DNA of 64,000 nucleotides from Sphyrna mokarran (taxonomy: Eukaryota): NCBI GenBank assembly GCA_024679065.1, contig JAGIQG010000013.1:34968001-35032000 (forward strand), read 5' to 3'. Under the pieces are notes generated by a model. That model worked only from the letters and a program-made list of their open reading frames with translations, did not search any database and was not told the origin of the DNA. The position numbers were made by a program, and so were the translations under genes. Below, one piece after another: positions 4,000-53,478 of the stretch; the first letter of the stretch is position 1; the number at the start of each line of letters is the position of its first letter.

Positions 4000-4070
4000 T
4001 TCATTTGCTGATTCATCTATTGATATTTCACTTATTTGATTACCAACATTTTTGCTGTGGATCGATGAAT
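4000..4070 (-). CDS. Gene A exon: cytoplasmic segment (DSSIHSKNVGNQISEISIDESANE)
   Basis: cttaacag acceptor and GAA|gtaagt consensus donor; 71 nt, phase 1-0, open in frame after the TM exon; the final exon was not confidently identified. Confidence 0.62.
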
Positions 4071-6405: not shown

Positions 6406-6510
6406 CTTTTCCATTCTTCAGTTTACAGCACAAACTCTTAATGATCCAAAGGCAAACAGGTACAATTAGGATCAGACCAAGCAGGCTGAAGTAATAGTAC
6501 TTGGAAACAT
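6406..6510 (-). CDS. Gene A exon: transmembrane segment (DVSKYYYFSLLGLILIVPVCLWIIKSLCCKLKNGK)
   Basis: aattttgaag acceptor and G|gtaatt donor; 105 nt, phase 1-1, in frame with C1; about 20 hydrophobic residues followed by a basic/Cys stop-transfer. Too short for the ORF track. Confidence 0.78.
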
Positions 6511-6865: not shown

Positions 6866-9452
6866 TAAGTGTCAGATTAGAAGGGGAGGAAGACGCTGGT
6901 ACATATGGTCTATAGGCCCCCTTATAGCAACTTTGAAGTGGGGAAGGCTATAAACAAGCAAATAAGAGATGCGTGCAGAAACGAGACAGTGTTAGTAATG
7001 GGCGATTTCAATCTGCGCATTGACTGGGTGACGCAAGTCGGACACGGCGGGCTGGAGGAAGAGTTTTTGGAATGCTGTAGGGATGGGTTCCTTGAACAGT
7101 ATGTTACGGAACTGACGAGAGAGCGTGCTTTCTTAGAACTAGTACTATGTAATGAGATGGGTAGAATTAGGGATATTCATGTGAGGGATCCTCTAGGGAT
7201 GAGTGATCATAGTATGGTAGAATTTATGATGCAGATGGAGGATGAGGTAGTGGAGTCCCAGAGCTGTGTACTAAGCTTGAACAGAGGGGACTATGATCGG
7301 ATGAGAGAGGAATTGGCTACTGTGGATTGGAGGAGTGCGCTGGTTGGTAGGACGGCAGAGGAACAGTGGGGGATTTTTAAAGAGATCTTTTTTGGTACTC
7401 AGCAGAAATATATTCCGATGGTGAAGAAGGACTGTAGGAGAAGGGAAAATCAGCTGAGGTTCTCCAAGGAAATTAGGGAGAGTATTAAATCTAAAGCTGA
7501 GGCATTCAGAACAGCTAAAAATAGTGGGAAATCGGAGGATTGGGAAAGTTTTAAACAACAGCAGAGAGTGACTAAAAAAGGGAAGATGGAATATGAGGCT
7601 AAACTAGCTTGCAACATCAAAAAGGACAGTAAGAGTTTTTATAAGTATATAAAGAAAAGGAGGATGGCCAGAGTAAATGTAGGACCCTTGGAGGATGAGA
7701 GGGGTGGTTTAATGGTGGGTGACAGGGATATGGCAGAGACCTTGAATAAGTTTATTGTGTCGGTCTTTATGGAGGAGGATGTAAATAGCTTGCCCGAACT
7801 CAAGGATAGAAGCGTGGTAGGAGATGAGGTCCTTGATGAGATTACAGTCACTAGCGAGGTGGTGCTTGATAGGCTAATGGGGCTGAGGGCAGATAAGTCC
7901 CCAGAACCGGATGGAATGCATCCCAGGGTTCTCAAGGAAATGGCAGAGGTGATAGTGGATGCCCTGGTAATTATCTTTTCAAAATTCGCTGGACTCCGGA
8001 AAAGTGCCAGAAGATTGGAAAACGGCTAATGTTACGCTGCTGTTTAAAAAGGATAGCAGACAGAAAGCAGGGAATTATAGGCTGGTTAGTTTAACGTTTC
8101 TAGCAGGAAAAATGTTTGAATCTGTAGTCAAAGCAGAAATAATGAGTCACCTGGATACAAACGGTTTGATTAAGTAGATGCAGCATAGATTCGTTAAGGG
8201 GAAGTTGTGCTTGACGAATTTATTGGAGTTCTATGAGGAAGAGACTAGTGTGGTAGATAGAGGAGAATCAGTGGATGTGGTGTTTTTGGATTTCCAGAAA
8301 GCATTTGATAAGGTGCCTCACAAAAGATTGCTGCAGAAGGTTAAAGGAGTCGAAGGTAGGGTGTTAGACTGGATAGAGGATTGGTTGTCTAATAGGAAGC
8401 AGAGGGTAAGTATTAATGGGTGCTATTCTGATTGGCAGCTGGTGACTAGTGGAGTGCCCTAGGGATCAGGGCTGGGGCCTCAACTATTTACCATTTACAT
8501 AAATGATCTGGAGGAAGGGGTAGAGTGCAGGGTGACGAAATTTGCTGATGACACAAAGATGAGTGGAAAAGCAAATTGCGAGGAGGGTGTGGAAAGCCTG
8601 CAGAGGGATCTGGTTAGGTTGAATGAATGGGCGAGGACCTGGCAGATGGAGTATAATGTTAGCAAGTGTGAGGTTATCCACTTTGGTAAGAATAATGATA
8701 GGAAGGACTACTATTTAAATGGAGAAAAGTTGCAGCATGCGACGGTGCAGAGGGACCTGGAGGTCTTTGTGCACCAATCATAAAAACACAGTCTGCAGGT
8801 GTAGAAGGTGATTAAGAAGGCGAATGCAATGTTGGCCTTTATAGCTAGGGGGATAGAATATAAAAGTAGGGAGGTTCTGTTGCAGCTGTATAGGGTACTG
8901 GTGAGGCTGCACTTTTGGTCTCCACATTCGAGGAAGGATATATTGGCCTTTGAGGGGATGCAGAGAAGGTTTACTAGGCTGATACCGGAGATGAATGTGT
9001 TGGATTATGAGGAGAGACTGAATAGGTTTGTACTCTTTGGCGTTTAGAAGGCTGAGAGGGGATCTCTTAGAAATGTATAAGGTCATGAAGGGGATGGATA
9101 GGGTAGAGGTTGAGAGACTCTTCCCACTTGACAAAGATAGCAGGACTAGAGGGAACAACTTCAAGATTGGGGAGGGGGGGATGGTTCAGATCGGAGTTGC
9201 AGAGGGGTTTCTTCACGCAGAGGGTGGTGAATCTTTGGAATTCTCTGCCTGATCAGATGGTGGAGGCTTCCTCACTGAATATGTTCAAGTCAAGAGTGGA
9301 TAGGTTTTTAATTGACAAGGGAATTAAGGGTTACGGGGAGAAAGCAGAAAAGTGGTACTGAACCACTACAGATCAGCCATGATCTTATTGAATGGTGGGG
9401 CATGCTCAAGGGGCTGTATGGCCTACTCCTGCTCCTATTTCTTATGTTCTTC
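6866..9452 (+). mobile_element. CR1/HER1-type LINE, 5'-truncated, ORF2 (EN-RT) pseudogene
   Basis: VYRPP, MGDFN, SDH (EN); DFQKAFDKVPH, SGVP, KFADD (RT); frameshifts and stops; CR1 3' tail. Confidence 0.93.
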
Positions 9453-15760: not shown

Positions 15761-16059
15761 CTAGAGAGTGAGAAGATTTGAGATGAAAAAAATCTCTGTT
15801 CCCAGTCTAACTGATTAATGTTGCTGATTTCAATTCCCCGCCATAATTTGTAATGTTTCTAATAAATCAGAAAATCGTCGTCGTGCGAATTTAATGTATT
15901 TTAGAGGTTTTTTTTGCTCGCAATTTCTCCAGCCTGCACTTGTATCTTCTGTAATTGCATCCCAAACACGCTTTTACACGGGGTGTACAAAATTATAATT
16001 TCTACCTCCACTTACTGTAATCGGGAGTGTGGGGTTTATTCCCTCTGTGAATCACTTAC

Positions 16060-16359
16060 CTCTGCTATGGCTGAAACGTATCCTCTCTGGCTCAGGGAGT
16101 GTGATGTGTTGAACCTCACAAATGACGGTGGTTCCCTGGTCCCAGTGAGTGTCTATAATGTGCAGCCGGGAGCTCAGGTTGTAGCTGCCGTCACTGTTTA
16201 CTATCAGCAAGCCCTGTTCAGTTTGATAGGAGACATCTCCCTCAACAATCCAGGAGATGGTCAGATTACTGGGAAAAAAACCCGCAGCCAAACAAATCAG
16301 AGATGGAAATCCAACTGTTTCTTTCTCGGGATCCGCAGAAAGAGAGATTTCAGGTTTGG
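16060..16359 (-). CDS. Gene A exon: Ig C1-set domain
   Basis: tttag acceptor and G|gtaagt donor; 300 nt, phase 1-1. AKPEISL...LICLAAGFFPSNLTISW...NSDGSYNLSSRL...WDQGTTVICEVQH matches the C1 motifs C-x-x-x-G-F-[FY]-P and C-x-V-x-H. Confidence 0.93.
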
Positions 16360-16899
16360 CTAAATGAACAAAATATTAAAAAAAACCTATCAATCTTCGT
16401 TGTAGCAAATACACAGAACGACTGCAAGAAAGATTTAAACCTGTACACGTCTGATAAAAACTGCAGAATCTGTTTGATTAATTACATAACAGGAAAGGAA
16501 AATGCAACGCGCATGAAATACGATCCAGAATAATAATATAAGTACTATCCAGTGACTTTATAAATGTAATTCTGACACAAGTTCAGTTTGTGTTTTTGGA
16601 GCTGCATTGTTAATGAAATATAAAAAATAATAGTAATTATTTCACAAAGACCAATTTCTCTCTTTGCAATCCGCTTGTTAACTAAATTATATTCGGCTGT
16701 TAGGACTGATGTCAGTATTACACAACTTTATCTTTTGGCCGTTTTTCTTCAAACTAAGTTTTGAAGATGATCTGAAAGCCCCTGTTTTTTAACGGTTATT
16801 GTGACAATAAAGCTAAAGGCTTTAGCCCCAGTATAGCATTTCTGGTTAGATTTCTGTTCCTTCCCCCCCGCATTGAGCTTTTTCAGTGTCTCTTAATCT

Positions 16900-17235
16900 A
16901 ATCTGAAAATCACAGCATGGTTACAGCACAGATCAGGAGGAGGCCATTTGGTCCATTATGCCCATGCCGATTGTCTGAAAGTATAATTGAACCAGTCCCA
17001 CTTCAGCCTTTTACAGTAGCTAGAACTGTTTCTTTTCAAAAATTGTCCAATTCTCTTTGGAAAATCACTATTGATTTTTTTCTCCACCGCGATCTCTGGC
17101 AGTGCACTCCAGATCCTAATCACACAGGAAGTAAAAGAAAAATAAATTCCTTTGTAGCCTCTTTTTAGACGTTCATTTTTAAATCCTTGAATTTTGGACA
17201 CTGCCTCCAATGGGGATAGTTTCTTCCTATCTCAT
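16900..17235 (-). mobile_element. CR1 3' fragment
   Basis: Degenerate RIWSALP and GGAGGCCATT tail motif. Confidence 0.6.
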
Positions 17236-17254
17236 CCATCGAGACCCAAATTCA

Positions 17255-17895
17255 AAACGAAGTATTGCGGATACGGGGAATTTAAAATAAAAGCAGAAAA
17301 GGTAGGGGGAAAAATACAGCCGATCTGGCAGCATCTGCAGAGAGAGAAACCGAGTTAACTTGCAGAAAGATAAAACAGAAAATGCACAGTGATGAAGGGT
17401 CATCCAGGCTCAAAACTTTGGCTCTATTCTCTCTCCACTGTCAGACATGCTGAGTTTTTCCAGCATTTTCTACAACAATATAAAGAGAAATTACTGCGGG
17501 TGCTGGAATCTGAAACCAAAAGAGAAAACGCTGAAAACAAGGGGAGAAAAGAGCTGACGTTTCGACTCCAGATGACTGTTTGTTAAAGCCTTGATGAAAT
17601 ATATTGATTAAAATAAATACAAGGCTTTGATAAAGGGTTATCGAAACGTCAGCTCTTTTCTCTCCTTACAGATGCTGCCAGACCTGCTGAGATTTTCCAG
17701 CATTTTCTCTTTTGGTTTCAGATTCCAGCAGTATTTTGCACTTGTGTTTTTATTTCAGAAAGATGACATTAATAATAAATTTAAACGATTAAATCTCTAG
17801 CTTCTTCCAGTTCTGACCAAATGTCATTGACTTTAGCTCAGTGTCTGTCTCCACAGAGACTGTCGGAGCTGAAGAGTATTTTCTGTTTTTATTTT
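17255..17895. repeat. Nested Penelope-derived palindromic repeats in the gene A V-C intron
   Basis: GCTGGAATCTGAAACCAAAAGAGAAAA / TTTTCTCTTTTGGTTTCAGATTCCAGC; GATGCTGCCAGACCTGCTGAG. Confidence 0.65.
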
Positions 17896-17903
17896 CTAAT
17901 TAC

Positions 17904-18239
17904 CTTGAATGTTCAGTTTTGTTCCTTCTCCTACAAAGTTTTTCCAGGGCTTAGGGGCCACTCTAAGAACCACGCAGTGGTAAGTGTCGGAATCGTCCAG
18001 AGTCACCTGCCGAATGACAAGTGAACCCTCAGATGGGGACAGGCGAGAGCTTTTCTGGAGGTTATTCTTGGATGCGTTGCCTCTGATGTTCGGGTTGTCT
18101 CTTGCCCTATACCAATAATATCTCATCTCACCCACCCGCTCCTCTCCGGGTATCAGGGTGCAACTTATTCGAGCTGTCTGTCCTGTCAGGAGGGACAGAA
18201 CTGAAGGAAACTGAGTCACGTTCAGACCGACAACAGGTC
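17904..18239 (-). CDS. Gene A exon: germline-joined VJ-type Ig V domain of a non-rearranging antigen-receptor/CD28-like IgSF protein
   Basis: tttcag acceptor and G|gtaatt donor; 336 nt, phase 1-1. GPVVGLNVTQFP...ARISC...YYWYR...LVIRQVTLDDSDTYHC...FVGEGTKLNIQ has canonical C, W, D-x-x-x-Y-x-C and J-like G-x-G-T-x-L in a single exon. Confidence 0.93.
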
Positions 18240-18330
18240 CTGAAACATAAAATTATAACATAATAATTAAACCCAAATAATCTGAGTACAACCAGAATTA
18301 CTGTTAACTGGAGTCCAAGTAAATCCTTAC

Positions 18331-18376
18331 CTACGACACAGAGGCAGAGTTTGAGAATGTATCCAACTGCACCCAT
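18331..18376 (-). CDS. Gene A exon: signal peptide (MGAVGYILKLCLCVV-G)
   Basis: ATG at 18376; 46-nt hydrophobic leader ending phase 1 at a G|gtaagg donor; splices in frame to the VJ exon. Confidence 0.88.
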
Positions 18377-18424
18377 CTCTCTCACCGGTATTACAGAGCT
18401 GCTGGTATTCTGAAGAAAAGAAAA

Positions 18425-18505
18425 ATCACTGGAAGGTTCTTGTGGTTGTAGCGCCCGGTACGTCACATCATACTGACTGCCGGTTACAGACCGAATGGGA
18501 AGTTT
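18425..18505 (-). promoter_or_regulatory. Putative gene A proximal regulatory region (CRE-like, RUNX, ETS motifs)
   Basis: TGACGTA (18459-18465), TGTGGTT (18441-18447) and GGAAG cores (18431, ~18498) with retained CpGs just 5' of the leader. Confidence 0.4.
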
Positions 18506-19899
18506 AACAAAATACACATGCTAGTCTCTTCACTTCTATGCAATAAACATTTGTATTTTCTCCCTTAATGCAAAATACCGTTGAATTTATAGTGTCAATG
18601 ATCTTTATCATTTGATTTTAAATTATGGTGCAATCGCCCCTAGTCTGGCATCAACAACTTGTAATCAACATTCAGAATAAATAAATCTGTAAACCACACG
18701 AATTTCAGTTGATGGAACTGGCCTGGAATTCGGATAATACCGAGGCAATTTATTTAACTTATGAGACCATCTGAAAGGGTGATTTGTTACTGACCAATGT
18801 TCATCCAGCCCGAGGCCAGTGCATGCAAATTCCATTTGTATCACTCCCAGTTGTCCTCCCAAGGCATTTTTAATTCATTCATGTGATAATCATGGACGTT
18901 TTCATAGAATCATAGACTCAGAATCCCTACTGTGCAGAAGGATACCATTCGACCCATCCAGTCTGCAACGACAACAATCCCGCCCAGTTCCCCTACACTA
19001 AGCGGCAATTCAGTATCGCCAATCAATCTATTCAATATTCAGTCAGTATTCTTCCATTTTGTACAACGCTTGAAGGAATCACTGAGGATGTCAAGGGCAC
19101 AAAATGTCCACCACCAAGAATGGCTTGGCAGCTGCACTACTGATCGAGCTGGGCAGGTCCTACTCATAATCTGCTCATACTGCATCACTGGAATTTTCAC
19201 CTGAACTCAGATAACCCTGTCTCATTTTACCCCATTTCAATTTCCCCAGAAGCCTGGAGTTTAGATTTCCAATCTTAGTTTTTGTTTTAGCTTCATTAGA
19301 AACTAGTAAGTTCCATCTCCTTTATCCGTTTCCCTTTTTAATTAAGGCTGTCTTGAAACTACAAGCTTTAACACATTGCCTTCCAACATAATGCTGTGAA
19401 GTCAGATACTTGATCACAGTTAACCACTTCCTCTCCTCCTTCTCCCTGCGCACTTTCTTCTTTATGTTCCTCAAAAAAAATGATTGATTTCAAAATTAAA
19501 CTTGTTCTTCATTGATCAAAAGCATTCCACTAAAATGAGGGACAAGACTATGGAATAACATTTTCATGATCACTATAACTTCAGGTTGTTGAAGATCGTG
19601 GCTGGGCCCTGGAATGCTCGTGGGGACCTGGACTGGCCAGAAATCAATCTGGTGAGCAAAGTGCAGATAGTTCAGGGCTTCAGCATATGCCCAGAGTTCA
19701 GCAACTGTCAGAATTGGTGTGAATAAACCTCGTCCGCCTGAACTTTTAATCAGATTCGTGATTGTGACCTCTGCATTGCAGAGTGTGGGAGATTTGAGTC
19801 TGAACTCCCACTGAGGAAAATAATTGTAGTCTACACCAGTTTTTCCGCAAATTCAGCACATAGAGCTTTTTTGAGAGAATCACCCCCTATGATTCTACT

Positions 19900-34551: not shown

Positions 34552-36068
34552 AGGCCCCCTTCGGCAGAGCACATTCCCCCATGATCCATCCCCTTGGGAG
34601 ATAGCCCCTCCCTGCGGTCAAGCCACCCCCCCCACCCAAGCCCCGGGAGGCAGCCCCCTCTGGGCAGGGCACACCCCCCAACACAACTCCTTTGCTGCTT
34701 TCCCTGCAGCATCCTTCTGACCTGCACTTGTTGATGTGGAGATGCTAGCATTGGACTAGGGTGAACACATTAAGAAGTCTCATAATACCAGGTTGAAGTC
34801 CTGTTGGACTGGTGTTGCGAGACTTCTTACTGCACTTGTTGGACAGCCTGCAAGCACCTTCCTGGCCTTCCACTGGCGTCTGCCGGAGGAGGGGAAGTGG
34901 GCTCAGATGGATCTCTGGTTGGGGGGTAGTGTGAAGATTCGCTGAAGTCCACCCTCCCCCAATCCTCCATCACTCCCACCCCCAACCGGGGGTGGGGGGG
35001 GGGGGGGGGGGGTCTGCCGGAGTGGTTAGAGGGGAGTCTGCGAGGAGTGTATGAGGAGGATGGGCTTCAGAGATTCAGAGATTCTCCTGCAGAACAGGAA
35101 TCCAGATTTTTATTTTTCAGGTGGATTGCAGTGCAGATCCGAAATGGATCTGAAGACAGTAAAATGGGATTTGACATTACAATACGGCACATGGTTCATG
35201 CATTTAAATTGTCAGGCTGCCAACTGGGGCGCGGACCGGATCCATGCCCAGATTGAGTGTCGGTAAAGGCACGATCTGCTCGGTTTTGGATGCAGATCGG
35301 GTTACAGGCCTGACGCCTGAATTTACCACGATTTTGACCCAAAAACGGGCACCAATTTTTGGTAAAATCAGGCCCTAGATTTCTAATTTGGATAGAAAAT
35401 GCCCTCCCTGTTTGACCATTCCATGTTTCCTTACTGAAACAAATAAGAATCTGTATTGGGTTTTGTGTCATTTTTTTCACTTCAGCTTTCAATCAAGAAA
35501 ACTGGCAGATTAAGAAAGGTCACATTCGGACAAAAGATTTTTCACATTTGGCGACTCTAATACCTTTACAAAACCAGAATGTAGGTGAAATCAGTCAATG
35601 GGTATCACTTCCACACAAAAACAAATTGGCCTAATTTATTTAAATTAATAACATTAGTCTTAATTTTATTTTTATTGCTATTTTAACAGAAGTGTAATCC
35701 AGTTATTGATATCAAGAATTCTAACATATTAATTCCTAACAATCTTACCTAATTTATCTCCAAAAGTATTGATATGTTTTATAATTTTCTGTCTGCAAAT
35801 ACACTTCATGAATGCTTCCTGTTAGGTCATTGCCTCTATCAAAGTATCAGACAGAGGTATTCAATAATTGTGTTAAGTGTTCAATGCATCATCAACAGCA
35901 CAATTTCATGGTACATTTCCTGTCTTTAAATAACTAAGAAACAGATTATTATTTTGTCCATAATCATGCCATTGATGTGTTTCTCCTTTACCCAACAGAT
36001 AGATATATTTTCCACAACTTTTACACTAGTCTGTTAACCTAAGCATAAATCTCATAAATAAAACCCAC

Positions 36069-36356
36069 CTGTGAACACAGCTCGAGTACGGAGAGGCTCT
36101 TTCATCCACCGATGTTTCTTGGAGCAGATGTAATGGTTCTTTGAGTCATGCTTCTGCTTCAGGTCATGTTCAACATGGAAAAATCCATTGTTGTCTCTGG
36201 TCACGATTGTTTCAGAGAAGTCATTCAGAAGATTACCATGGCTATCTTTCCAGCTGACTTCTGGTTCTGGGTACCAGCCTGAAGATTGGCAAGACAGCAT
36301 GTCATTGCCACTTCCATCAGATTTCCATATGATACGGCTACCGTCACTACTTTGTG
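36069..36356 (-). CDS. Gene B exon: B7/butyrophilin-type IgC domain
   Basis: tttttttctag acceptor and G|gtgggt donor; 288 nt, phase 1-1. LSCQSSGWYPEPEVSW...DNNGFFHV...YIC matches the BTN/B7 C motif C-x-S-x-G-W-Y-P-x-P-x-V-x-W. Confidence 0.92.
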
Positions 36357-36594
36357 CTAGAAAAAAATGACATGCCATTATATAAGGAACCACAAAGATA
36401 ATGTGCCTGTAACCCATTACAGAACATAGCAGCTTTCACAACAGTTGAGAATATGTATTTAAAAGCATATTGTGACCAATAATGCCAAAACTATTTACAG
36501 CAGAGCAAAAATAAAACTACAGGAGATAGGTTCAGTGGTTTATGTTGGAATTAGGAGCTTTGGATAAATGCAGGTATCTTATAATTGTGGAAAA

Positions 36595-37930
36595 TTATAG
36601 AACAAGATGAGGCCATTCAGCCCATCATCCCCAGACTAGCTCTTTGAAAGAATTGTCATTTTTAGTTCCATACTCCTGTGTTTTTCACAGTCTTGCAAGT
36701 TCAACATCCGCAACAACCTGCCCAACTCCCTTTGAATATTATTTTTGGAATCACCTTCAAACATCTTTTTAGGTTCAGCATTCTAGATTGCAGCAACTGA
36801 ATGAAAATATTTCATCAGTTCACCTTCACATACGTTGCCAATGATTTTAAATCAATAATTTCAGTTTTTTGATGCATTCACTAGAGAGATTAATTTTTCT
36901 GACCCTATCAAAACCTCTGATCTTCCTGAAAACCTCAATTAAGTCACCTCTTTACCTTCCCTAGTCTTAAATTTTTCAATCTCTCCTTGTAATTAAAATC
37001 CCATATTTCTGATAATTTCTGATAAACCTCCATTGTTACCCCTTGTAAGACCTTTACATCATTACTGAAGTGTCATGTCTGGAACTATCCACAATATTCA
37101 TGAGACCTAATCAGTAACTGATATTTTTCCAGCATCATCTCCCTGGTTTTATATCATATTACTCCATTTAAAATCCAAGAAGCATTACAGCATGGAAACA
37201 GGTCCTTCAGCCCAACTTGTCCCTGCCGCTCTTCTTTTTAAAACCTCAAAGCCAGTCCCAATTGCTGCATTTAGCCCATATCCCTCTATACCATTCTTAT
37301 GTATGAAACTGTCTAAATGCTTTTTAAAAGACTAAATTGTACCTATCTCTACTACTACCTCTGACAGCTTGTTCCAGACACTCATCACCCTCTGTGTGAA
37401 AAAACTGCCCCTCTGGACACTTTCGATCTCTTCCCTCTCACCTTAAACCTATGCCCTCTAGCTTTAGACTTCCCTAACTTTGGGAAAAGATATTGAGTAT
37501 CAATCTGATCTATACCCTTCATTATTTTAAAGACCTCTGTGACATCCCCCCTCAGCCTTCTATGCTCCAGAGAGAAAAGTCTATTCAGCCTCTCCTCCCA
37601 ACTCAAACCATCAAGTCCTGGTAGCATCCTAGTAAACCTTTTCTGCACTCTTTCTAGTTTAAGAATATCCTTTCTATAATAGGGTGACCAAAACTGTACT
37701 TAATATTGTACAGTTATTCTTTTTGTAACCATCTTATCGGCTTACTGTGCCATCTTTAATGATTTGTTCATTTGGTTACTAAGATCTCTCTGCTCATTTG
37801 CATTTTTCAAAACGATGCCATATAGAGCATTTGTTCCTATATTAGTCCCTCTAACAACATCCTCCCTCCAACCTGCATCACTTCACTTTACCAAGTGAAA
37901 TTGATCTGCCTTGTTTCTGTCTATTTTATC
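36595..37930 (-). mobile_element. Nested CR1 fragments
   Basis: QKRFTRMLPGL...RRLRGDVTEVFKI at 37385-37648, inside an older degenerate CR1. Confidence 0.75.
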
Positions 37931-39240
37931 AACCTGTCTATGTCATCCCAAATCTACTGACGAATTTCATCTAAACAGGAGGAGGCCATCTCACAATGTG
38001 GAGATCAGCTCCTTGCGGTGTTTTGTAGAACTCTGTTTACAATTTTCAGAAAATGGTAGGTGACATGTGTTCTGTGCTCATCAGGCTATTTGTACCAGCC
38101 AAGGAATGATCTTAATTATCCTTAAAAAGATGACCTAGGAAATTTTTGTTCAAAAAATTATAACACCTGCTAGGTAGAAATTCTAAATAAACACTTATGA
38201 TATTTTGACAGCACTTCTGTTTTCAATTCTGAGCTGACCAGCTGGCTTTTTAATCTGATCATTCTCTTCTATTTTCTCAGTTTCCTTTATAAGTGCCTCA
38301 ACTGTTCAGATACTCTTGCTTCATCGATATCCTTTATTTTTGGTCCACTCTCTGTTTCTTAATGCAAATTATTGGCCTTCATTTACAATACTGCTGGAAG
38401 TAGGATCAGGGATAGAGATTAATTTGGATTACAGATTTGTGTTATTGTTCTAACCAATAATACCTCCGGGATAAAGTTTGACAATTTCATCTTCCAAACT
38501 CAGTGGGCGAGATTTTGTGGCCATGCTTGCCCCAAAATCAGAAAATCCCACCTGAGGTCAACATACCTTTCCATGGTGTCCGCTTCCCTCCCCAACGACA
38601 ACCCCCCCCCCCCCCCCCACCCCCCCCCCCCCCACCGCTTGCTACAATTTCCATGACAGGCGGAATGGGAAAATTCCCCACAATGTGATAAAAATTCTGG
38701 CTGAAGTTTCTTTATGTCCCACTGCAGCTTCAGTGGATGCCAGAGAAAAATGGCATAATCCCTGATCCTACTGCAAAGTGATAAGACATTGAAAAGTAGG
38801 AGCAGAAATTGCCCATATGGCCCATTGCTGATCATCGCTGATCTGACTGTGATCTCAACTCCATTTTCCAGCCTGACTCCGTCAATCAAAATTCTAACTC
38901 AGCCTTCAATGCATTCAATAACTCAAACTTCACCGTCCTCTGTGGAAGGGAATTCAAAATACTCATGACACTCATGATTCCTTGGCCAGAATTTTACCAG
39001 CCTGCCCACCATGGGAATCAAGCGGGTGAGGGCTGGGATATGGGAAGGTCCACTGACTCCAGGCATGGTTTTGTGATTTGGGACAAGCAAGTAAAATCCT
39101 GCCCCTTATCTCCAACTTAAATGTGAGGCTTTTTATTTTTAAGCTATGCCCCCATCAGTTCTAGAGTCCCCTATGAGGGAAAACATCCATACAACATCCA
39201 TCCTGATAAACCCCCTCAGGAACTTATATGCATTTTACAT

Positions 39241-39540
39241 GGACAGCACAGTGGCACAATGATTAGCGCTGCTCTCTCCCAGTACTGGGGGCCCGGACTC
39301 AATTCCAGCCTTGGATGACTGTATGAAGTTTGCACATTCTCCTCGTATCTGCATGGGTTTCCTCTGGGCATTGTGATTTCCTCCCACAGTCCAAAGATGT
39401 GCAGGTTAGGTTGATTGGCCATGCTAAATTGCCCCTTAGCACCATAAATACATGAGGTTATGGGGAAAGGACTGGATGGGATTGTTGTCGGTGCAGGCTT
39501 GATGGGCTGGATGACCCTACTTCTGTAAGGATTCTATGTT
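39241..39540 (+). mobile_element. HE1-type V-SINE
   Basis: Head, core and tail. Confidence 0.8.
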
Positions 39541-39636
39541 CCAATAAGATTACCTGTCACTCTTCCAAACTTCAATTAACATTGGTCCAACCTGGAGATC
39601 AGGAGAATCTGGTATATTTTCATTTTTGTTTTGTTT

Positions 39637-41587
39637 GGCTTATGTCAGGATGAGGCTTGAAGGCTCAGTTAGTGCACTGGAAAGCTATAGATTAGCCAGG
39701 AGGGAGCTAAAGAGTGAGTTGAGAAGAGCTAAAAGAGGACACGAGGAGACTTTGGCTGATAGGATCAAGGAGAATCCTAAAGCTTTCTTTAGATATGTTA
39801 AGAATAGAAGATTGGTTAGGGCAAGATTAGGGCCAGTCACAGACAGTATTGGGAAGTTATGCGTGGAGCCTGAAGAGATTGGAGAGGCACTGAACAAATA
39901 TTTCTCTTTGGTATTCATGCAGGGAGATGTAAATGTAGTTGTGGAGAACACTGGGATACAGGGTTGCAAACTGGAAAGTATTGAAGTAGATAAGAAGGAT
40001 GTGCTAGATATTCTTGAGGGTTTGAAGTTAGATAAGTCCCCTGGGCCGGACGGGATTTACCCTAGGATTCTCTGGAAGGCGAGAGAGGCGATTGCAGAGC
40101 CTCTGGCTCTGATCTTCAGGTCGTCGTTGGTTACGGGTATAGTGCCGGAAGACTGGAGGATAGTGAATGTGGTCCCATTGTTCAAGAAGGGGAATAGAGA
40201 CTTTCCGGGGAATTATAGGCTGGTGAGTCTTACTTCTGTTGTGGGCAAAGTATTAGAAAGAAATATTAGGGATAGGATTTATAGTTATTTAGAGAGAAAT
40301 GAATTGATTGGGGATAGTCAGCATGGTTTTGTGAAGGGTAGGTCGTGCCTTACTAACCTCATTGAGTTTTTTGAAAAAGTGACCAAAGAGGTGGATGGTG
40401 GTAAGGCAGTTGATGTGGTATATATGGACTTTAGTAAGGCATTCGATAAGGTGGCCCATGGAAGGCTTCTGCAGAAAATGCAGATGTATGGGATTGAGGG
40501 TGATTAGCTAATTGGATTAGGAATTGGCTAGCAGATAGAAGACAGAGGGTGGTGGTTGATGGGAGATATTCATCGTGGAGTTCGGTTACAAGTGGTGTAC
40601 CTCAGGAATCTGTTTTGGGGCCCCTGCTGTTTGTAATTTTTATAAATGATCTGGATGAGGGTATTGAAGGATGGATTAGTAAATTTGCGGATGACACTAA
40701 AGTCGGAGGAGTGGTAGATAGTGAAGAGGGGTGTTCTAGTTTGCAGAGAGACTTGGACAAGTTGCAGAGCTTGGCCGAGAGGTGGCAAATGGAGTTTAAT
40801 GTGGAAAAGTGTGAGGTAATTCACTTTGGCAGGAATAACAAATGTATAGAGTATAGGGCTAATGGTAGGACTCTTAATAGTGTTGATGAACAGAGGGATC
40901 TTGGTGTACGTGTGCATAGATCCCTGAAAGTTGGCAATCAAGTCGATAAGGTTGTTAAGAAGGCATACGGAGTCTTAGCTTTTATTGGTAGGGGGATTGA
41001 ATTTCAGAGCCGTAACGTCATGTTGCAACTGTACAAAACTCTGGTGCGGCCGCACTTGGAGTATTGTGTGCAGTTCTGGTCCCCACATTATAAGAAAGAT
41101 GTGGAGGCATTGGAGAGGGTACAGAGGAGCTTTACCAGGATGTTGCCTGGTATGGAGGGCAGGTCCTATGAAGAGAGGTTGAAGGATTTGAGTTGTTTTC
41201 GTTAGAAAGGAGGCGGCTAAGAGGGGATCTTATTGAAGCATATAAGATGATTAGAGGTTTAGATAGGGTGGACAGTGATAGCCTTTTTCCTAGGATGGCG
41301 AAAGCTAGCACGAGGGGACATAGCTTTAAATTAAGGGGTGGTAGTTATAGGACGGATATCAGAGGTAGGTTCTTTACCCAGAGGGTGGTAAGGGTATGGA
41401 ATGCCCTGCCTGCTGCAGTGGTAGATGCGCCAAGTTTGGGGGCGTTTAAGAGGTTAGTAGATAAGTTTATGGATGAAAAGGGAATGGTTTAGGTTAGAGG
41501 GTCATTGCTTTTTCTTAATTGGTCGGCGCAACATCGAAGACCAAAGGGCCTATTCTGCACTGTAATGTTCTATGTTCTATCTATGTT
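39637..41587 (+). mobile_element. CR1 LINE, young 5'-truncated copy, in the gene B V-C intron
   Basis: KSPGPDGIYP, QHGFVKGRSCLTNL, DFSKAFDKV, KFADD, RPHLEYCVQFW; few disablements; TTCTATG-type tail. Confidence 0.93.
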
Positions 41588-41740
41588 AGAAGCTATTGCT
41601 GTTATTTCACAGCAAACTTTCTTAATAACTAAATGAAATGAATAATGTCTTTTCCGCTAGAGTCACTGGAAACCTACATAAAAATTTAAATAATTAAACA
41701 CCGAGTGATTCTGAATGCAGATGCAGAACAGATGACATAC

Positions 41741-42076
41741 CCCAAACAGATAGATGTATTGATATTTCACCAAATCCATTGTTATTATACGCTCCGCACT
41801 TGTAGGTTCCTTCATCCCAGATATTGACATTCTTCAGTGTAAGAGATGCATCTCCTTTATTGACTCCATGAAGTTCGGTTCTCTTGGTGTAGTTTTTGTG
41901 CTGATTGCTGAAGTCATGCTCATTTCTTTTGTACTCATGCACAGTTTGATCCACACCTTCCTTCTGCCAGATCACTGTAGGATTATTGTCACCAGTGCTG
42001 TCAAATGTACACTTGAGAATGGCATGTTTGCCAATCTCTACAGCAATGTGCTCCTCAGGGGCAACAATGAATGTCT
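41741..42076 (-). CDS. Gene B exon: B7/butyrophilin-family IgV domain
   Basis: cccttgtgcag acceptor and G|gtatgt donor; 336 nt, phase 1-1. ETFIVAPEEHIAVEIGKHAILKC...VIWQK...VHEY...QHKNYTKRTEL...GDASLTLKNVNIWDEGTYKC is a typical B7/BTN V. Confidence 0.92.
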
Positions 42077-42994
42077 CTGCACAAGGGATGAAAGTACCAC
42101 AGTTAGAAACAAATATTTTAATAATTATTCACATAAATATATATTAGCCTTTTGTTCAGATCAGATCTGTTTATTTCTATCATTTATAAAGAAGTGTTGA
42201 AAAGGTGCATTGTTTCGCTGATAAATGGGTTAGATTGTGATCACAAATTCCTCAAAGTTGGTTTCTGCTTTCTTGCAAATAAACAACAAGGATGAGCTCC
42301 GAGGAATTTCCTGGTCTATGTAGGCCGTTGGTAAGTAGCTGAATGTGTTTTTAATAACATTTGGAGCTAACTTTGAACTAATTGCAATATTGCCATGTCT
42401 ATCTGTTGTTTTCCAGAGCTGTTGTGTACTTGATGGACTGATTGGTATAAATCCCTGATGTCGCTATATGATACCAGTGCTTCACTTGAACTTGCATTTA
42501 GAGATTTTCATTTAGGTACAGAAGTCCACATGAAAGACATCTCATAGTTCAAATATGAAGGGTCATCTAATCTTGAAATATTGGCTCTACTCTCTCTCCA
42601 TAAATGCCGTCAGATTTGCTGAGATTTCCCAGCATTTTTCTGTTTTTGTCACAGCACATGCCTACCTTCATACTCCTGACAAGTTTCAGTTGGTGGGAAA
42701 ACCACCACTATTCTACCTTTCAGGCTTCCAATAAAACAGCAGCAACTTTGGGTTCTGGCAACAATCAGGTCCAGCCTTTGGCACTCACCATTTACAACCA
42801 CAGTGGTGAGAATGTGAGAACAAAATGGATAAGTCCCGTTGACAATTAAATGGCAACCTAAAATGTTTGTCTGAATTCTAGAGTCAAATTAATAGTCAAA
42901 TTATTCAAATCCATGAATTTCTCTGAATTTAGGCTTTTTTTTTATTATTAACAGAGACAAATTTCAGCCAGACAGAAATCTGCTGCACTATTTT

Positions 42995-48359: not shown

Positions 48360-51300
48360 TGAAAGAACAAAGAACAAAACAGCACAGGAAACAGGTCCTT
48401 TGGCCCAACGAGCCCGCACCACCACCCCGATGTTCCCGCCTCTACCCGTGATCCCTGTCTATGTTTATAGATCTATGGATTAAAAACCAAATTTGAGACA
48501 ATTTAGGGAGAATTGTTTTGCCAATTAGCCTAAGAGCACATCTTTGGGATGTGGGAGGAAACCGGAGCACCCAGAGAAAACCCACGCAAGCACGGGGGGA
48601 ATGCGCAAACTCCCACAGACACAGGCCCAAATCCATGTATCTGCACAGCACAGCGATAGTCACTGAGCTGTCGTGTTGCCCATCAAATGTCCAGGTCAAG
48701 CGTACACTAACGACGTGAAGCACTAGGATACTCTCGAAAAAGATCCAAGAGCAGCCCTCTCATGACCCATCGCGTGTATGCCCCTCGTTAGACAACAAGG
48801 TGGACCAAAGCACCTGTACGATAAAAACAAGTACATCAATATCATCATCTATTTACATACTTCCCAGGGACTCCCAAGGCTCATGATCCCTATTTTAAAT
48901 CAGTTTTCTATACCCCTCCATTCCCATTCTGTTCATGTGCCCATCTAAGTATTTCTTAAATAACTCCAGAGTACCTGCCTCCACCACTTTAGTTGGCAGC
49001 GCATTCCATACCCCCACCACCCTGTATGTGAAAAAACTCCCTCTAGCATCCAAATTATACCTTACCCCCCGCACCCTAAGCCCGTGACCCCTCGTGCTAT
49101 TTGAGTCCATCCTAGGAAAAAGCTTAACCCTGTTTACTCTATCTATACCCCTCATAATCTTGTACACCTCTGTTAGATCCCCTTTAAGTCTACGTCTTTC
49201 TGAGGAAAACAGTCCCAATTTGCCTAACCTCTCCTTGTAATTCAGACCTTCCATACCAGGCAGCATCCTGGTAAACCTCCTCTGCACTCTCTCCAGAGTC
49301 TCCACATCCTTCCAGTAGTAAGGCGATCAGAACTGGACGCAGTATTCCAAATGAGGTCTAACCAGCGTTTTATACAACTGCAACATTAAAGGCCAGCTCT
49401 TGTACTCTATACCCCTTCCTATAAACGCTAGCATACCATATGCTTTCTTCACAACCTTCTCCACTTGTTCTGCCACCTTCAGAGACTTGTTCACCTGCAC
49501 CCCCAGGTCCCTCTGCATTTCTGTACTCTTAACAGGTCTACCCTTTATCATATACCTCCCCTCTACATTCTTTCTCCCGAAATGCATCACCTCACATTTA
49601 TGAGGATTGAATTCCATCTGCCATCTGTCTGCCCAAGCTACCAGCCTATCTATGTCCTGCTGCATCACCTGACAATGCTCCTCACTATCCGCAAGTCCAG
49701 CAATCTTTGTATCGTCTGCAAACTTGCTGATCACTCCACTTACTCCCTCTTCCAAATCATTTATATATATTACAAGTAGAAGAGGTCCCAGTACCGAGCC
49801 CTGTGGCACACCACTAGCGACCGACCTCCAGCTAGAAAAACACCCTTCCGCTATTACTCTCTGTCTCCTATTACCAAGCCAGTTACTTATCCATCTAGCT
49901 ACCTGTCCTTGTATCCCATGAGCCTTGACTTTCTCAACTAACCTCCTGAGGGGCTTTGTCAAACGCCTCACTAAAATCCATATAGACGACATCAACAGCT
50001 CGCCCTTCGTCCACCGTTTTCGTCACCTCCTCAAAAAATTCTACCAGATTTGTAAGGCATGACCTCCCCTCAACAAATCCATGCTGCGTATCCCTAATCA
50101 GATTGCAACGGTCTAAGTGCCTATACATCCTATCTCTAAGAATCCCCTCCAACAGCTTCCCTACCACTGACATCAAACTCACCGGCCTATAATTTCCAGG
50201 GTTATCCCTACTACCCTTTTAAAACAATGGTACAACATTAGCTATTATCCAGTCCTCTGGGACCTCACCTGTGTCCAAGGAAGAGACAAAGATTTGCGTC
50301 AGAGGCCCAGCAATTTCACCTTGCACCTCTCTAAGCAGCCTGGGATAAATGCCATCAGGCCCTGGAGATTTATCAGTTTTAATGCTACCTAGAAGCTCTA
50401 ACACTTCCTCCCTCGGTATGGATATTTCCCTCAACTGGTCCACAGCTCCCTCAGAGACAGGAGCTGTCAACAAGTCCCTCTCCTTCGTGAATACCGACGC
50501 AAAGTATTCATTCAGGATCTCCGCCATTCCCTCGGGCTGTAAGCACAGTTCCCCTCCTCTGTCCCTAAGAGGTCCGATTTTTCCTCTAACCACCCTTTTA
50601 TTCCTAACATAGGAGTAAAAAACCTTTGGATTTTCCTTAATCCTATCTGCCAAAATCATTTCATGCCCCCTTTTTGCCCTTCTAACTCCCCGTTTGAGCT
50701 CCCTCCTATTCTCTCTATATTCCTCCAACGCTGTCTCCGTTCCCAGCTGCTTTGACCTATCATACGCCTCTCTTTTCTTCCTAACCAAGTCCTCAAAATC
50801 CCTAGTAATCCACAGCTCTCTAATCCTTCCTTTCCCATCTTTCCTCTTGGCCGGCACATATTTATCTTGCAACATTTTCAGTATTCCCTTGAAAGACTCC
50901 CACATGCCTAGCGTGGACTTGCCCTCGAACAACCATTCCCAATCAGTTTCCATAAGTTCCTGCCTAATCTGACCATAGTTAGCCTTCCCCCAATTCAGCA
51001 CCCTGCCCCTAGGGCAACAAGCATCCTTTTCCATCTGTACCCTAAAGCAGACAGAATTGTGGTCACTGTTAGGCACATGTTCCCCTACTACAGCATCAAC
51101 CACCTGCCCTGGCTCATTACTCAGAACTAAATCCAATATAGCCCCTTCTCTGGTCGGGCTAGCCACATACTGCTCCAACGATCCTTCCAGTACACATTTT
51201 ACAAATTCCTGCCCGTCTAAACCCCCAGCTTTAGGTACTTTCCAATCCACCCTAGGGAGATTAAAATCTCCCACTGTAACGACTCTGTTCTTTCTGCACC

Positions 51301-51430
51301 TATCCAAAATGTCTTTACATATGCCTTCTTCAACTATCTGCGGGCTGTTGGGAGGCCTATAATACACCCCCAGCATGGTAATCGCCCCCTTTCTATTCCT
51401 CAACTCCACCCACAGTGACTCCAGGGTTGT
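48360..51430 (-). mobile_element. CR1 LINE (EN-RT) whose 3' end continues into a V-SINE-derived segment
   Basis: YYRPPN, GDFN, SDH, GVPQGSVLGP, KFADD; after the stop at 48895, a unique 3' UTR runs into a V-SINE core at 48685-48520 and a GTTCTTT tail. Confidence 0.9.
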
Positions 51431-51564
51431 TTATGTATGTCCTCTCAACCTGGACTCGGTATTCACTACTTCTCAGGGTCACATGCTATTGTTGCATTCT
51501 GTCCCACCTTAAACTCAACAAACCCACCAAAGCAGTTCCAAGCAGTCCCGATTGTTTAGATTAA

Positions 51565-51737
51565 ACAACAAAGAACAAAGAATAACACAGCACGGGAAAC
51601 AGACCCTTCGGTCCAATGAGCCCACGCTGCTATTTTAACGTTCCCACTTCCACCCATGACCCTTGTCTATGTTTATGGAAATCTGCATTGGAACCAAATT
51701 GGGGAGACAATTTAGGGACAATTTGTTTCGCCAATCA
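51565..51737 (-). mobile_element. Short 3' fragment of the same chimeric family
   Basis: Similar to 48360-48530 (AAAGAACAAAG tail; GAGACAATTTAGGGA). Confidence 0.7.
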
Positions 51738-51929
51738 TTATTGATATTCGATAGATTATTGATAACATCAACAAACTGGACAGATTTGTCTTCTGAATCT
51801 ACTGGCTTTGCATCATAAAGACCCACATGGTCCATGTACACCTCTCACAACACACTGTCCAGTCTCACCCTTCACACACTGATTATTGTCCAACGTACAA
51901 CTCTATAAGAGGAAAGGCAATCAGCAAGT

Positions 51930-53478
51930 ATGTAATAACCACTGAGGAATCTCACTGCTCTCCATCATAGGAAAAACCCTCGTAAGAGTCCTGCTAAATC
52001 ATTTGCTCACTCATCTGGAGTTAGGCCTGCTTCCAGTCACAGTGTGACTTCCGCAAAGGTCATGAAACTACTGACATGATTTTTGCTGTGCACCAACTTC
52101 AGGAGAAGAGTCAGGAGCAGAATCGTGAGCTCTACACGACCTTTGTTGACCTTGCAAAAGCCTTCGACACTGTAAGCCGATAAGGCTTGTGGAGGATCAT
52201 GTCAAAGTTCGGCTGCCCCCCCAAATTCATTCAGGTGGTATGCCAGTTCTATGGTGGCATGAGGGCCAGAGTACTGGATGGCGGAGAATCCACTGAGGCA
52301 TTCCCAGTCACCAATGGTGTCAAACAGGGCTGTGTGCTCTCACCCACACTGTTCAGCATAATGTTTACTGCCACGCTGAATGATGCCTTCCAGGACAATG
52401 TTGCTGGAATCAGCCTCAAGTACAGAGTGGATAGGAAGCTCTTCAACCTGAGGAGACTTCAAGCTATTACCAAAGTGAAAGAGACTGTTCTGAGAGATTT
52501 CCTCTTTGCCGATGACTGCCTGTATGCTGGCTCAGAGATGCAAGTCAGTATGGACAAATTTTCCACAGCTTGTGACAACTTTGGACTCACCATCAACATT
52601 AAAAAGACCGAAATCATGCACCAGCCTGCTCCTCGTGCACTGTACACAGAACCCATAATCACAATCAAACAGCAGAAACTACAGGCAGTGGACCAGTTCA
52701 CTTATCTTGGCAGCACCCTCTCTCAAGCAGTGACTGCTGATACAGAAGTTAACTGCAGAATAGCAAAGGCAAGTTCTGCTTTCAGTAGACTGCACTTCAC
52801 TGTATGGGAACATTGAGGAGTCAGCCCAGCAGCAAAACTGAAGGTCTACAGTGCCACAATGCTCATTACCCTCCTATATGCCTGTGAAACATGGACTATA
52901 CATCAAGATATGCAAGACAACTCAAGCATTTCCATATGACTTGTCTTTGCAGAATATTAGGCATCAGGTGGCAAGACAAAATACCAGACACTGAAGTTCT
53001 CTCTAGAGCATGTCTACCAACAGTCCACACACTGCTGATGAGAGCACAGACCTGGTGGGCAGGTCACCACATATGTATGTCAGACAAGCGCATACCAAAG
53101 CAGCTCTTTTTTTGACGAACTCTCTGTTAGAAGACGTTCGCATGGAGGGCAGAAGATATGTTTCAAAGACATACCCAAGGCCTTCCTGAAGTCGCTTGAC
53201 ATTGACACGACCACCTGGGAAACGTTGGCACAAAACCTGGCACTGCCTCATCCACAAAGGATGTCAAGCTCACGAAGCAAGATGTATTCCTGAAGCACAA
53301 CTTAAACGCAAGTTGCGCAAGTCCAGAGCCACCAGCGCAACAACTACAGGTCCAATATGTGCCAGGCCATTCTGTGTCCGAACTGGCCTGATCAGTCATC
53401 TTCAGACAAACCGCAACCATCCTCAAAATGACTAATGGTGTCGAGGTCCTCATGAATGATGGACGAACAACAACATTG
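51930..53478 (+). mobile_element. RTE-clade LINE, 5'-truncated, disrupted
   Basis: FVDLAKAFDTV, GVKQGCVLSPTLF, KLFNLRRL, LFADDC, FTYLGS, C-terminal C..C..GLISH, CAA tail. Confidence 0.9.

What the first reader, a model, noticed from the sequence alone, without database searches (positions are those of the whole stretch)
16060..18376. Non-rearranging, germline-joined VJ-C1 gene
V and the J-like GEGTKL motif lie in one exon, no RSS with a nonamer is visible, and a true C1 exon follows. C1 domains are largely restricted to Ig, TCR, MHC, tapasin and SIRP-type proteins. It lacks the C-terminal interchain Cys of light chains and the FG-x-G Phe (it has V-G-E-G). It resembles the PRARP/VJC1 'antigen-receptor precursor' class rather than a germline-joined shark light chain.
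Basis: partly seen in the sequence, partly recalled or inferred. Interest (0 to 1): 0.7.

Follow-up and report, generated by a model that had tools for sequence, protein, structure and literature searches.

The report
Shark on/off antibody-shaped receptor pair
This is an intact shark gene for an antibody-shaped cell-surface receptor that needs no DNA rearrangement and is likely an immune 'brake'; a second gene 114 kb away has an almost identical outer part but a likely 'accelerator' anchor, and the two appear to be kept alike by repeated copying, as seen in paired receptors that counter pathogens.

Summary
The L, joined VJ and C1 exons are real (18376-16060, minus strand; no RSS), but the gene continues: a transmembrane exon (6510-6406) and two cytoplasmic exons (4070-4000; one 2.4 kb outside the window) give an open 369-aa receptor with four ITIM/ITSM-like tyrosines, conserved in sharks and rays. 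It is not a light chain. A second, inverted gene 114 kb away has the same V protein and a C1 differing at one residue, but an arginine-bearing transmembrane exon and a short tyrosine-free tail: a likely activating partner. Identity is 99% over the ectodomain exons, about 90% or nil in between; across species ectodomains follow the species tree while anchors follow the class, which points to long-running gene conversion. The pair brackets a B7-H4-like gene, another VJ exon and TRIM45-like, in a block matching human 1p13. Relatives occur in sturgeon, paddlefish, bichir and amphibians. It works like SIRP-alpha/beta or CEACAM pairs; membership of SIRP or PRARP is unresolved, and nothing ties it specially to the antigen-receptor precursor. 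Ligand unknown; a complex prediction with the B7-H4-like neighbour gave only weak support.

The parts
18331..18376 (-). Exon 1, signal peptide (46 nt, phase 1)
   Evidence: sequence; matches N-termini of P0001-P0006
17904..18239 (-). Exon 2, germline-joined VJ domain (C42-W58-C104, G-E-G-T-K-L)
   Evidence: Pfam V-set E 8.5e-11; AlphaFold model pLDDT 87.7, V-type fold
16060..16359 (-). Exon 3, C1-set domain, no unpaired Cys
   Evidence: Pfam C1-set E 2.4e-15; spliced join in a relative's contig
6406..6510 (-). Exon 4, uncharged transmembrane segment
   Evidence: tblastn E 3e-17 to P0001; 34 of 35 residues identical; splice sites
4000..4070 (-). Exon 5, first cytoplasmic exon. Exon 6 (252 nt, four tyrosine motifs and the stop) lies outside the window at G000:C335:34965622-34965371
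   Evidence: exon 6 has a single match in the genome
17840..18470 (-). Tract 1 of about 99% identity with the inverted partner gene at G000:C335:35099887-35100518 (5' leader region, L, intron 1, VJ, 66 nt of intron 2)
16050..16390 (-). Tract 2 of about 99% identity with the partner gene (C1 exon); about 90% identity runs on to about 16850
41697..42128 (-). Neighbour: V exon of a B7-family gene (B7-H4/VTCN1-like by position); candidate ligand, not shown
   Evidence: best PDB hits CD276 E 1e-14 and VTCN1 E 3e-14; Pfam
36055..36435 (-). Neighbour: C exon of the same B7-family gene
   Evidence: Pfam C2-set_3 E 4e-17

Best explanation
The gene encodes a 369-residue, non-rearranging VJ-C1 transmembrane receptor with four ITIM/ITSM-like tyrosines that is likely the inhibitory member of a paired-receptor locus, its inverted neighbour 114 kb away being the predicted activating member, the two likely kept alike by gene conversion. 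Shown: exon structure, open frame, the twin ectodomain, the arginine-bearing anchor and tyrosine-free tail of the twin, exon-limited identity, species-wise clustering of ectodomains. Inferred: ligand binding by the V domain leads to phosphorylation of the tail and recruitment of SHP-1/SHP-2; the twin pairs through its membrane arginine with an ITAM adaptor (FcR-gamma or CD3-zeta type); the twin serves as a counterweight or decoy against pathogens that exploit the inhibitory receptor, and conversion between the opposite-facing genes keeps its binding face matched.
For: Six exons splice to 1110 nt, 369 aa, one stop, the length of the Mustelus orthologue P0001. Tail motifs QHYAAI, TEYAVL, AQYSTV, TTYASL; the four tyrosines align in Mustelus, Scyliorhinus, Heptranchias, Stegostoma and Hemiscyllium and similar tails occur in sturgeon, caecilian and frog proteins. 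Exactly two close V and two close C1 matches and one tail exon in the genome (counts are lower bounds). Partner gene G000:C335:35099981-35118313 (+): 0/46, 1/336 and 3/300 nucleotide differences in L, V, C1; TM exon 35113068-35113170 reading S-I-P-E-I-V-R-Y-F-I-I-F, 23 of 29 identical to a Scyliorhinus torazame protein, E 9e-11; short tail exon like that of ray proteins P0014/P0015. Identity profile 99% / about 90% / unalignable. A clade of arginine-anchor ectodomains is rejected, p-AU 3e-45, while their anchors score 49-58 between sharks and rays against 17-31 across classes. Huso has two near-identical ectodomains on one contig with different anchors, one with Arg. Exon-limited conversion between opposite-facing inhibitory and activating genes is described for Xenopus CEACAMs (PMC5112662, passages); N-terminal TM arginine with FcR-gamma coupling in PMC2413239 (passages).
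Against: No signalling, expression or ligand data. In this species 0 of 4 motifs meet the strict consensus (S/I/V/L)xYxx(I/V/L) or TxYxx(V/I) (PMC12151841), although two do in three other sharks. The partner's anchor lacks the NxxR motif of FcR-gamma-coupled receptors. Its TM exon is 103 nt, one base off the frame of the ray-like tail exon, in a run of nine A: assembly error or a real frameshift; no transcript of the partner's C1-TM join was seen. Both genes in one species are shown only here; ray inhibitory and activating proteins come from different species, and the second Hemiscyllium protein has no modelled anchor. The sturgeon Arg anchor does not resemble the shark one (scores 21-25). Pathogen-driven selection was not tested (no orthologous DNA).
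Confidence: 0.72

Rival explanations
1. It is the shark counterpart (orthologue or sister) of tetrapod SIRP-alpha/beta, a myeloid 'don't-eat-me' receptor for CD47.
For: Same plan: VJ plus C1, four-tyrosine tail, activating twin. Databases name orthologues SIRP-alpha-like. Atlas top feature hits are SIRP-alpha clusters, 0.97 and 0.95. SIRP as sister is not rejected: p-AU 0.22, 0.27, 0.31. No SIRP-type V exon was found in this genome with a lungfish SIRP V (best hits light chains).
Against: All five trees place it apart from six or seven SIRP rows (split 96/94). V identity 20/103 and 25/105. SIRP activating forms carry a mid-membrane Lys (P0106, P0114, P0146), the twin an outer Arg. Lungfish has a true SIRP and amphibians have this family, so both lineages exist in lobe-fins. 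Neighbours match human 1p13, not the SIRP locus (human order recalled).
Confidence: 0.15
2. It is the shark orthologue of chicken PRARP / Xenopus VJC1, a relic of the gene that the RAG transposon split.
For: VJ in one exon, C1, inhibitory-type tail, relatives in bony fish and amphibians: all as I recall for PRARP. PMC11599192 lists PRARP among joined-VJ genes (passage).
Against: PMC10751288 cites PRARP as a VJ gene in the MHC (passage), whereas this locus is in a 1p13-like block. No unpaired extracellular Cys for the disulphide-linked dimers that I recall for PRARP. The genome holds other VJ-C1 families (C335:19.17-19.31 Mb, C1027), one of which falls on the Ig/TCR side of the tree with a canonical F-G-x-G. 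The V lacks the W-Y-Q-Q-K-P framework of light chains. This rival is compatible with the paired-receptor mechanism; it differs in family assignment.
Confidence: 0.25
3. The second copy is a recent partial duplicate or pseudogene (or assembly artefact), and the gene is a lone inhibitory receptor.
For: Near-identity of exons; one-base frame offset at the end of the Arg-TM exon; no transcript seen.
Against: Flanks and much of intron 2 do not align, and identity is layered, unlike one recent duplication or a collapsed haplotype; all splice sites intact; the Arg-TM exon has homologues fused to this ectodomain in catshark and two rays.
Confidence: 0.1
4. Germline-joined immunoglobulin light chain.
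For: Best PDB sequence hits of the V are light chains, E about 1e-6; some orthologues are named kappa-like.
Against: TM and tail; no terminal Cys; 26-31 identical of about 97 V residues with this genome's own kappa and lambda, which lie on other contigs; p-AU 0.02.
Confidence: 0.01

Closest known systems
SIRP-alpha / SIRP-beta paired receptors
   Same: Joined VJ plus C1 ectodomain, four-tyrosine inhibitory tail, activating twin with charged anchor and short tail
   Different: One C1 rather than two; Arg near the outer face rather than mid-membrane Lys; separate branch in all trees; different gene neighbourhood (recalled)
CEACAM paired receptors of Xenopus and mammals (PMC5112662, passages read)
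   Same: Inhibitory and activating genes in opposite orientation, exon-limited near-identity with divergent introns
   Different: Unrelated domains; CEACAM activators carry their own ITAM; here the C1 exon is homogenised too
PRARP (Fu et al. 2019) and Xenopus VJC1 genes (Ohta et al. 2019); neither held, content recalled
   Same: Non-rearranging VJ-C1 with ITIM/ITSM-type tail, found outside mammals
   Different: No free Cys; an activating twin; not MHC-linked; orthology untested
CD28H / CD28HL / PD-1 / NKp30 joined-VJ receptors (PMC11599192, passages read)
   Same: V exon type with GxG; V groups with CD28H-like exons; B7-family gene next door
   Different: CD28-family members have a single V and an EIP/PPP loop; this has a C1 and V-A-P-K-P-W
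UrIg / UrIg2 (PMC12227049, passages read)
   Same: Shark non-rearranging VJ-C1
   Different: UrIg has several C domains and is MHC- or Ig/TCR-linked; this has one C1 and a signalling tail

Membership tests
Paired receptors | Two genes in one cluster with near-identical ectodomains | tested here: met
   205 of 206 ectodomain residues identical, 114 kb apart
Paired receptors | Opposing signalling modules (tyrosine tail versus charged anchor with short tail) | tested here: met
   by sequence only; strict ITIM/ITSM consensus 0 of 4 in this species, NxxR absent
Paired receptors | Opposite orientation and exon-limited conversion | tested here: met
Paired receptors | Measured inhibition and activation | not testable with these tools
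   needs cell assays
SIRP | VJ plus C1 ectodomain and four-tyrosine tail | tested here: met
   one C1 only (two in Hypanus and sturgeon)
SIRP | One clade with tetrapod and lungfish SIRP | tested here: inconclusive
   apart in best trees, not rejected by AU
SIRP | Activating form with mid-membrane Lys | tested here: not met
   Arg near the N-end of the anchor against Lys in P0106, P0114, P0146
SIRP | Binds CD47 | not tested
   no shark CD47 was fetched
PRARP / VJC1 | Single-exon VJ, C1, ITIM/ITSM-type tail (recalled) | tested here: met
PRARP / VJC1 | Disulphide-linked dimer (recalled) | tested here: not met
   only the four canonical extracellular Cys; some orthologues have an extra V Cys
PRARP / VJC1 | Orthology by tree and synteny | not testable with these tools
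   papers not held; no named PRARP protein among hits
Ig light chain (germline-joined) | Secreted V-C with terminal Cys, no anchor | tested here: not met
Ig light chain (germline-joined) | Clade with a shark IgL class | tested here: not met
   p-AU 0.02 with kappa on V+C1; 4e-5 with five IgL V rows, confounded by IgL not being one clade
CD28 family | Single extracellular V with EIP/PPP-type loop | tested here: not met
   has C1; loop V-A-P-K-P-W
UrIg | Three or more C domains, MHC or Ig/TCR linkage | tested here: not met
   one C1; neighbours are mannosidase, B7, TRIM45-, TTF2-, EWI-like; tree inconclusive, p-AU 0.25

The most novel reading that the evidence does not exclude
This is an ancient jawed-vertebrate on/off receptor pair, lost in mammals, whose self ligand is the B7-H4-like protein encoded between the two genes: a linked receptor-ligand module that would supply a receptor for B7-H4 (an orphan in mammals, recalled) and show a CD28/NKp30-type V on a C1 stalk under gene conversion since before the shark-ray split. 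A complex prediction gave weak support only: 0.38 against a best control of 0.03 (mark reached by 51 of 78 solved and 2 of 108 mismatched pairs; at 0.60 or under by 5 of 78 solved and all 4 passing mismatches of 180); like complexes are solved, so the pass may be from memory.
Probability: 0.12. Interest if true: 0.8.

Novelty: new variant of a known kind. Interest (0 to 1): 0.5.

Why it matters
Non-rearranging VJ-C1 genes are sought as relatives of the antigen-receptor ancestor (PMC12227049, PMC10751288). This locus shows such an ectodomain used as a minimal two-gene inhibitory/activating pair in cartilaginous fish, with signs of conversion over a long time, at a defined 1p13-like address and with relatives up to amphibians. 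It gives one inhibitory gene, one activating gene and one neighbouring candidate ligand, so it is directly testable, and it warns that database names (SIRP-like, kappa-like, TCR-like, tapasin-like) hide one family.

Tried and rejected
Homologue search for the second VJ exon (C335:35051k): none among 323 candidates; no C1 for it found. My splice-plus-hydrophobicity scan for its TM exon failed its own positive control and is not used. Fold searches do not discriminate: VNAR, SIRP-alpha, light chains, TCR, PD-1, CD79b and NKp30 all score alike. Search with bird SIRP C1 domains gave only weak generic C1 hits. Literature: searches found no description of this locus or pair; PRARP in the immunological sense appeared in two papers only; Ohta 2019, Fu 2019, Flajnik 2023 and Flajnik 2012 were not held, so prior description there is possible. 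No supplements were read; those of PMC10751288 (synteny tables) may bear on the PRARP question. Earlier-findings look-ups by place and sequence were blank. Rows dropped: 16 of 56 V rows before the AU tests (near-duplicates, long branches, one partial); Polypterus C1 missing.

Full report
Observation. No strict RSS lies in 15900-18600. A contig from a related organism joins VJ to C1 at the predicted place. The window is G000:C335:34968001-35032000.

The gene is longer. Seven of 169 candidates were close homologues of the V, all from sharks, 16 with the profile, adding rays. They guided tblastn to a TM exon (6510-6406), a cytoplasmic exon (4070-4000) and a last exon outside the window (C335:34965622-34965371). 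The six exons give 1110 nt, 369 aa, one stop, followed by an AATAAA. The anchor is uncharged. The tail has QHYAAI, TEYAVL, AQYSTV and TTYASL. None meets the strict ITIM or ITSM consensus quoted in PMC12151841 (passages) in this species or Mustelus; the first and third are strict ITIMs in Scyliorhinus, Heptranchias and Stegostoma. Against Mustelus the V is 92/110 identical, C1 80/100, TM exon 34/35, tail 95/107; in more distant sharks the domains are about equally diverged. Variation in V peaks in the loops before the W, C'-C'' and the F-G loop.

A twin. The V matched two places at 100%: the window and C335:35100120-35100452 on the other strand. The twin has L, VJ and C1 with 0, 1 and 3 nucleotide differences and intact splice sites but no copy of the inhibitory TM or tail. 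Proteins from catshark and rays with the same ectodomain and another anchor (P0044, P0014, P0015) found a TM exon 11.4 kb downstream (35113068-35113170, E 9e-11) with an Arg near its outer end, and a short tail exon at 35118260. The TM exon is one base off the ray-like tail frame in a run of nine A; every reading gives a short tail without tyrosine. An Arg at the N-end of the anchor marks FcR-gamma-coupled receptors (PMC2413239, passages), though their NxxR motif is absent here.

Concerted evolution. Identity between the genes is about 99% from 18470 to 17840 and over C1, about 90% in the 3' third of intron 2, and at chance level upstream, mid-intron and after the C1 donor. In a 15-row ectodomain tree the two genes are sisters, catshark inhibitory and activating forms are sisters, and stingray forms of both classes group by kinship; an all-activating clade is rejected (p-AU 3e-45); anchors group by class across sharks and rays. 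So the activating anchor likely predates the shark-ray split while the ectodomain is refreshed. This is the pattern reported for opposite-facing Xenopus CEACAM pairs (PMC5112662, passages). Limits are listed in the Against line.

Neighbourhood. In order: GH47 mannosidase (34.68-34.76 Mb), the inhibitory gene, a B7-family gene, a lone divergent VJ exon (35.051 Mb), RING-B-box-coiled-coil-filamin TRIM45-like, the twin, an SNF2 helicase TTF2-like, an EWI-type Ig gene. I recall this as the order MAN1A2-VTCN1-TRIM45-TTF2-CD101/PTGFRN of human 1p13; the gene names come from domains plus that recalled order, not from orthology tests.

Family. The profile search (1659 hits at E 0.001, best 150 listed) gave V-C1(-C1)-TM-tyrosine-tail proteins from sturgeons, paddlefish, bichir, a caecilian and a frog, and chimaera fragments. 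On V+C1 they join the elasmobranch clade at 91/94 and 85/84; their synteny was not tested, and they sit closer to the lone VJ exon. The best trees separate the family, with CD28H-like exons and a second VJ-C1 family, from SIRP, Ig, TCR and UrIg (88/94; 96/94), but AU tests do not reject SIRP (0.31), UrIg (0.25) or kappa (0.14) as sister of the whole family; the elasmobranch clade with kappa alone is rejected (0.02). Labels of in-genome reference exons (IgH, kappa, lambda, TCR, NKp30-like) are mine, from recalled motifs; the CD28H EIP motif is from PMC11599192 (passages). The Atlas feature search names SIRP-alpha first, which reflects the shared plan.

Ligand. Unknown. Because the V groups with CD28H-type domains, I folded it with the neighbouring B7 V: weak support, 0.38 against a best control of 0.03, runs agreeing in at least 95% of contacts, partner pLDDT at least 80; the mark was reached by 51 of 78 solved and 2 of 108 mismatched pairs, but at 0.60 or under by 5 of 78 solved and all 4 passing mismatches; PD-1/PD-L1-type complexes are solved and the controls were unrelated proteins, so this may be likeness only.

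Verdict. Real gene, half of a likely inhibitory/activating pair under gene conversion. The genes are already modelled in RefSeq under assorted names; nine literature searches found no account of the pair. Earlier scan notes describe other, larger shark VJ-C1 families with on/off forms, so the theme recurs in sharks; they are unchecked and not counted as support.

Noticed in passing
G000:C335:35051702-35051337 (L013:9340-9699, minus): Lone divergent VJ exon (G-S-G-S-H-L-T-V) with a leader exon upstream, between the B7-like gene and TRIM45-like; matches caecilian P0069 V at E 1.5e-10; no C1 found, TM not found by a scan that failed its control.
   Followed up: partly
G000:C335:19170344-19315129 (L046-L050, L100-L107): Second VJ-C1 cluster on the same contig: three genes with an I/V-P-P-P loop like CD28H; the two outer ones face opposite ways, have near-identical C1 but different V, and one has an Arg-bearing TM exon. 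Orthologues in rays and chimaera; cDNA-based record in Callorhinchus.
   Followed up: partly
window 36055-42128, minus: B7-family gene, B7-H4-like by position, V and C exons open; LINE insertion between them.
   Followed up: partly
G000:C1027:2334107-2334427 (L097): VJ with canonical F-G-x-G and a C1-like domain in one open frame of 279 aa; falls on the Ig/TCR side of the tree; a possibly better PRARP candidate.
   Followed up: partly
P0126 (Callorhinchus milii model): The TM and tyrosine tail of this family appear behind a CD2/SLAM-like V domain; either a gene-model fusion or real tail shuffling.
   Followed up: no
P0003, P0005, P0010: RefSeq isoforms skip the TM exon or part of C1; the C1 donor can also read through to a stop (G-K-stop, window 16061-16052), so soluble forms are possible.
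   Followed up: no
G000:C960:14988382-14988720 (L003) and C1548:107297307-107297630 (L098): Further single-exon VJ domains; L003 groups with the bony-vertebrate relatives, L098 looks NKp30-like (recalled motif) and groups next to SIRP at 93/86.
   Followed up: partly
window 6881-8026, 39548-41202, 49330-52813: Decayed LINE (endonuclease/reverse transcriptase) copies in introns and intergenic DNA.
   Followed up: no
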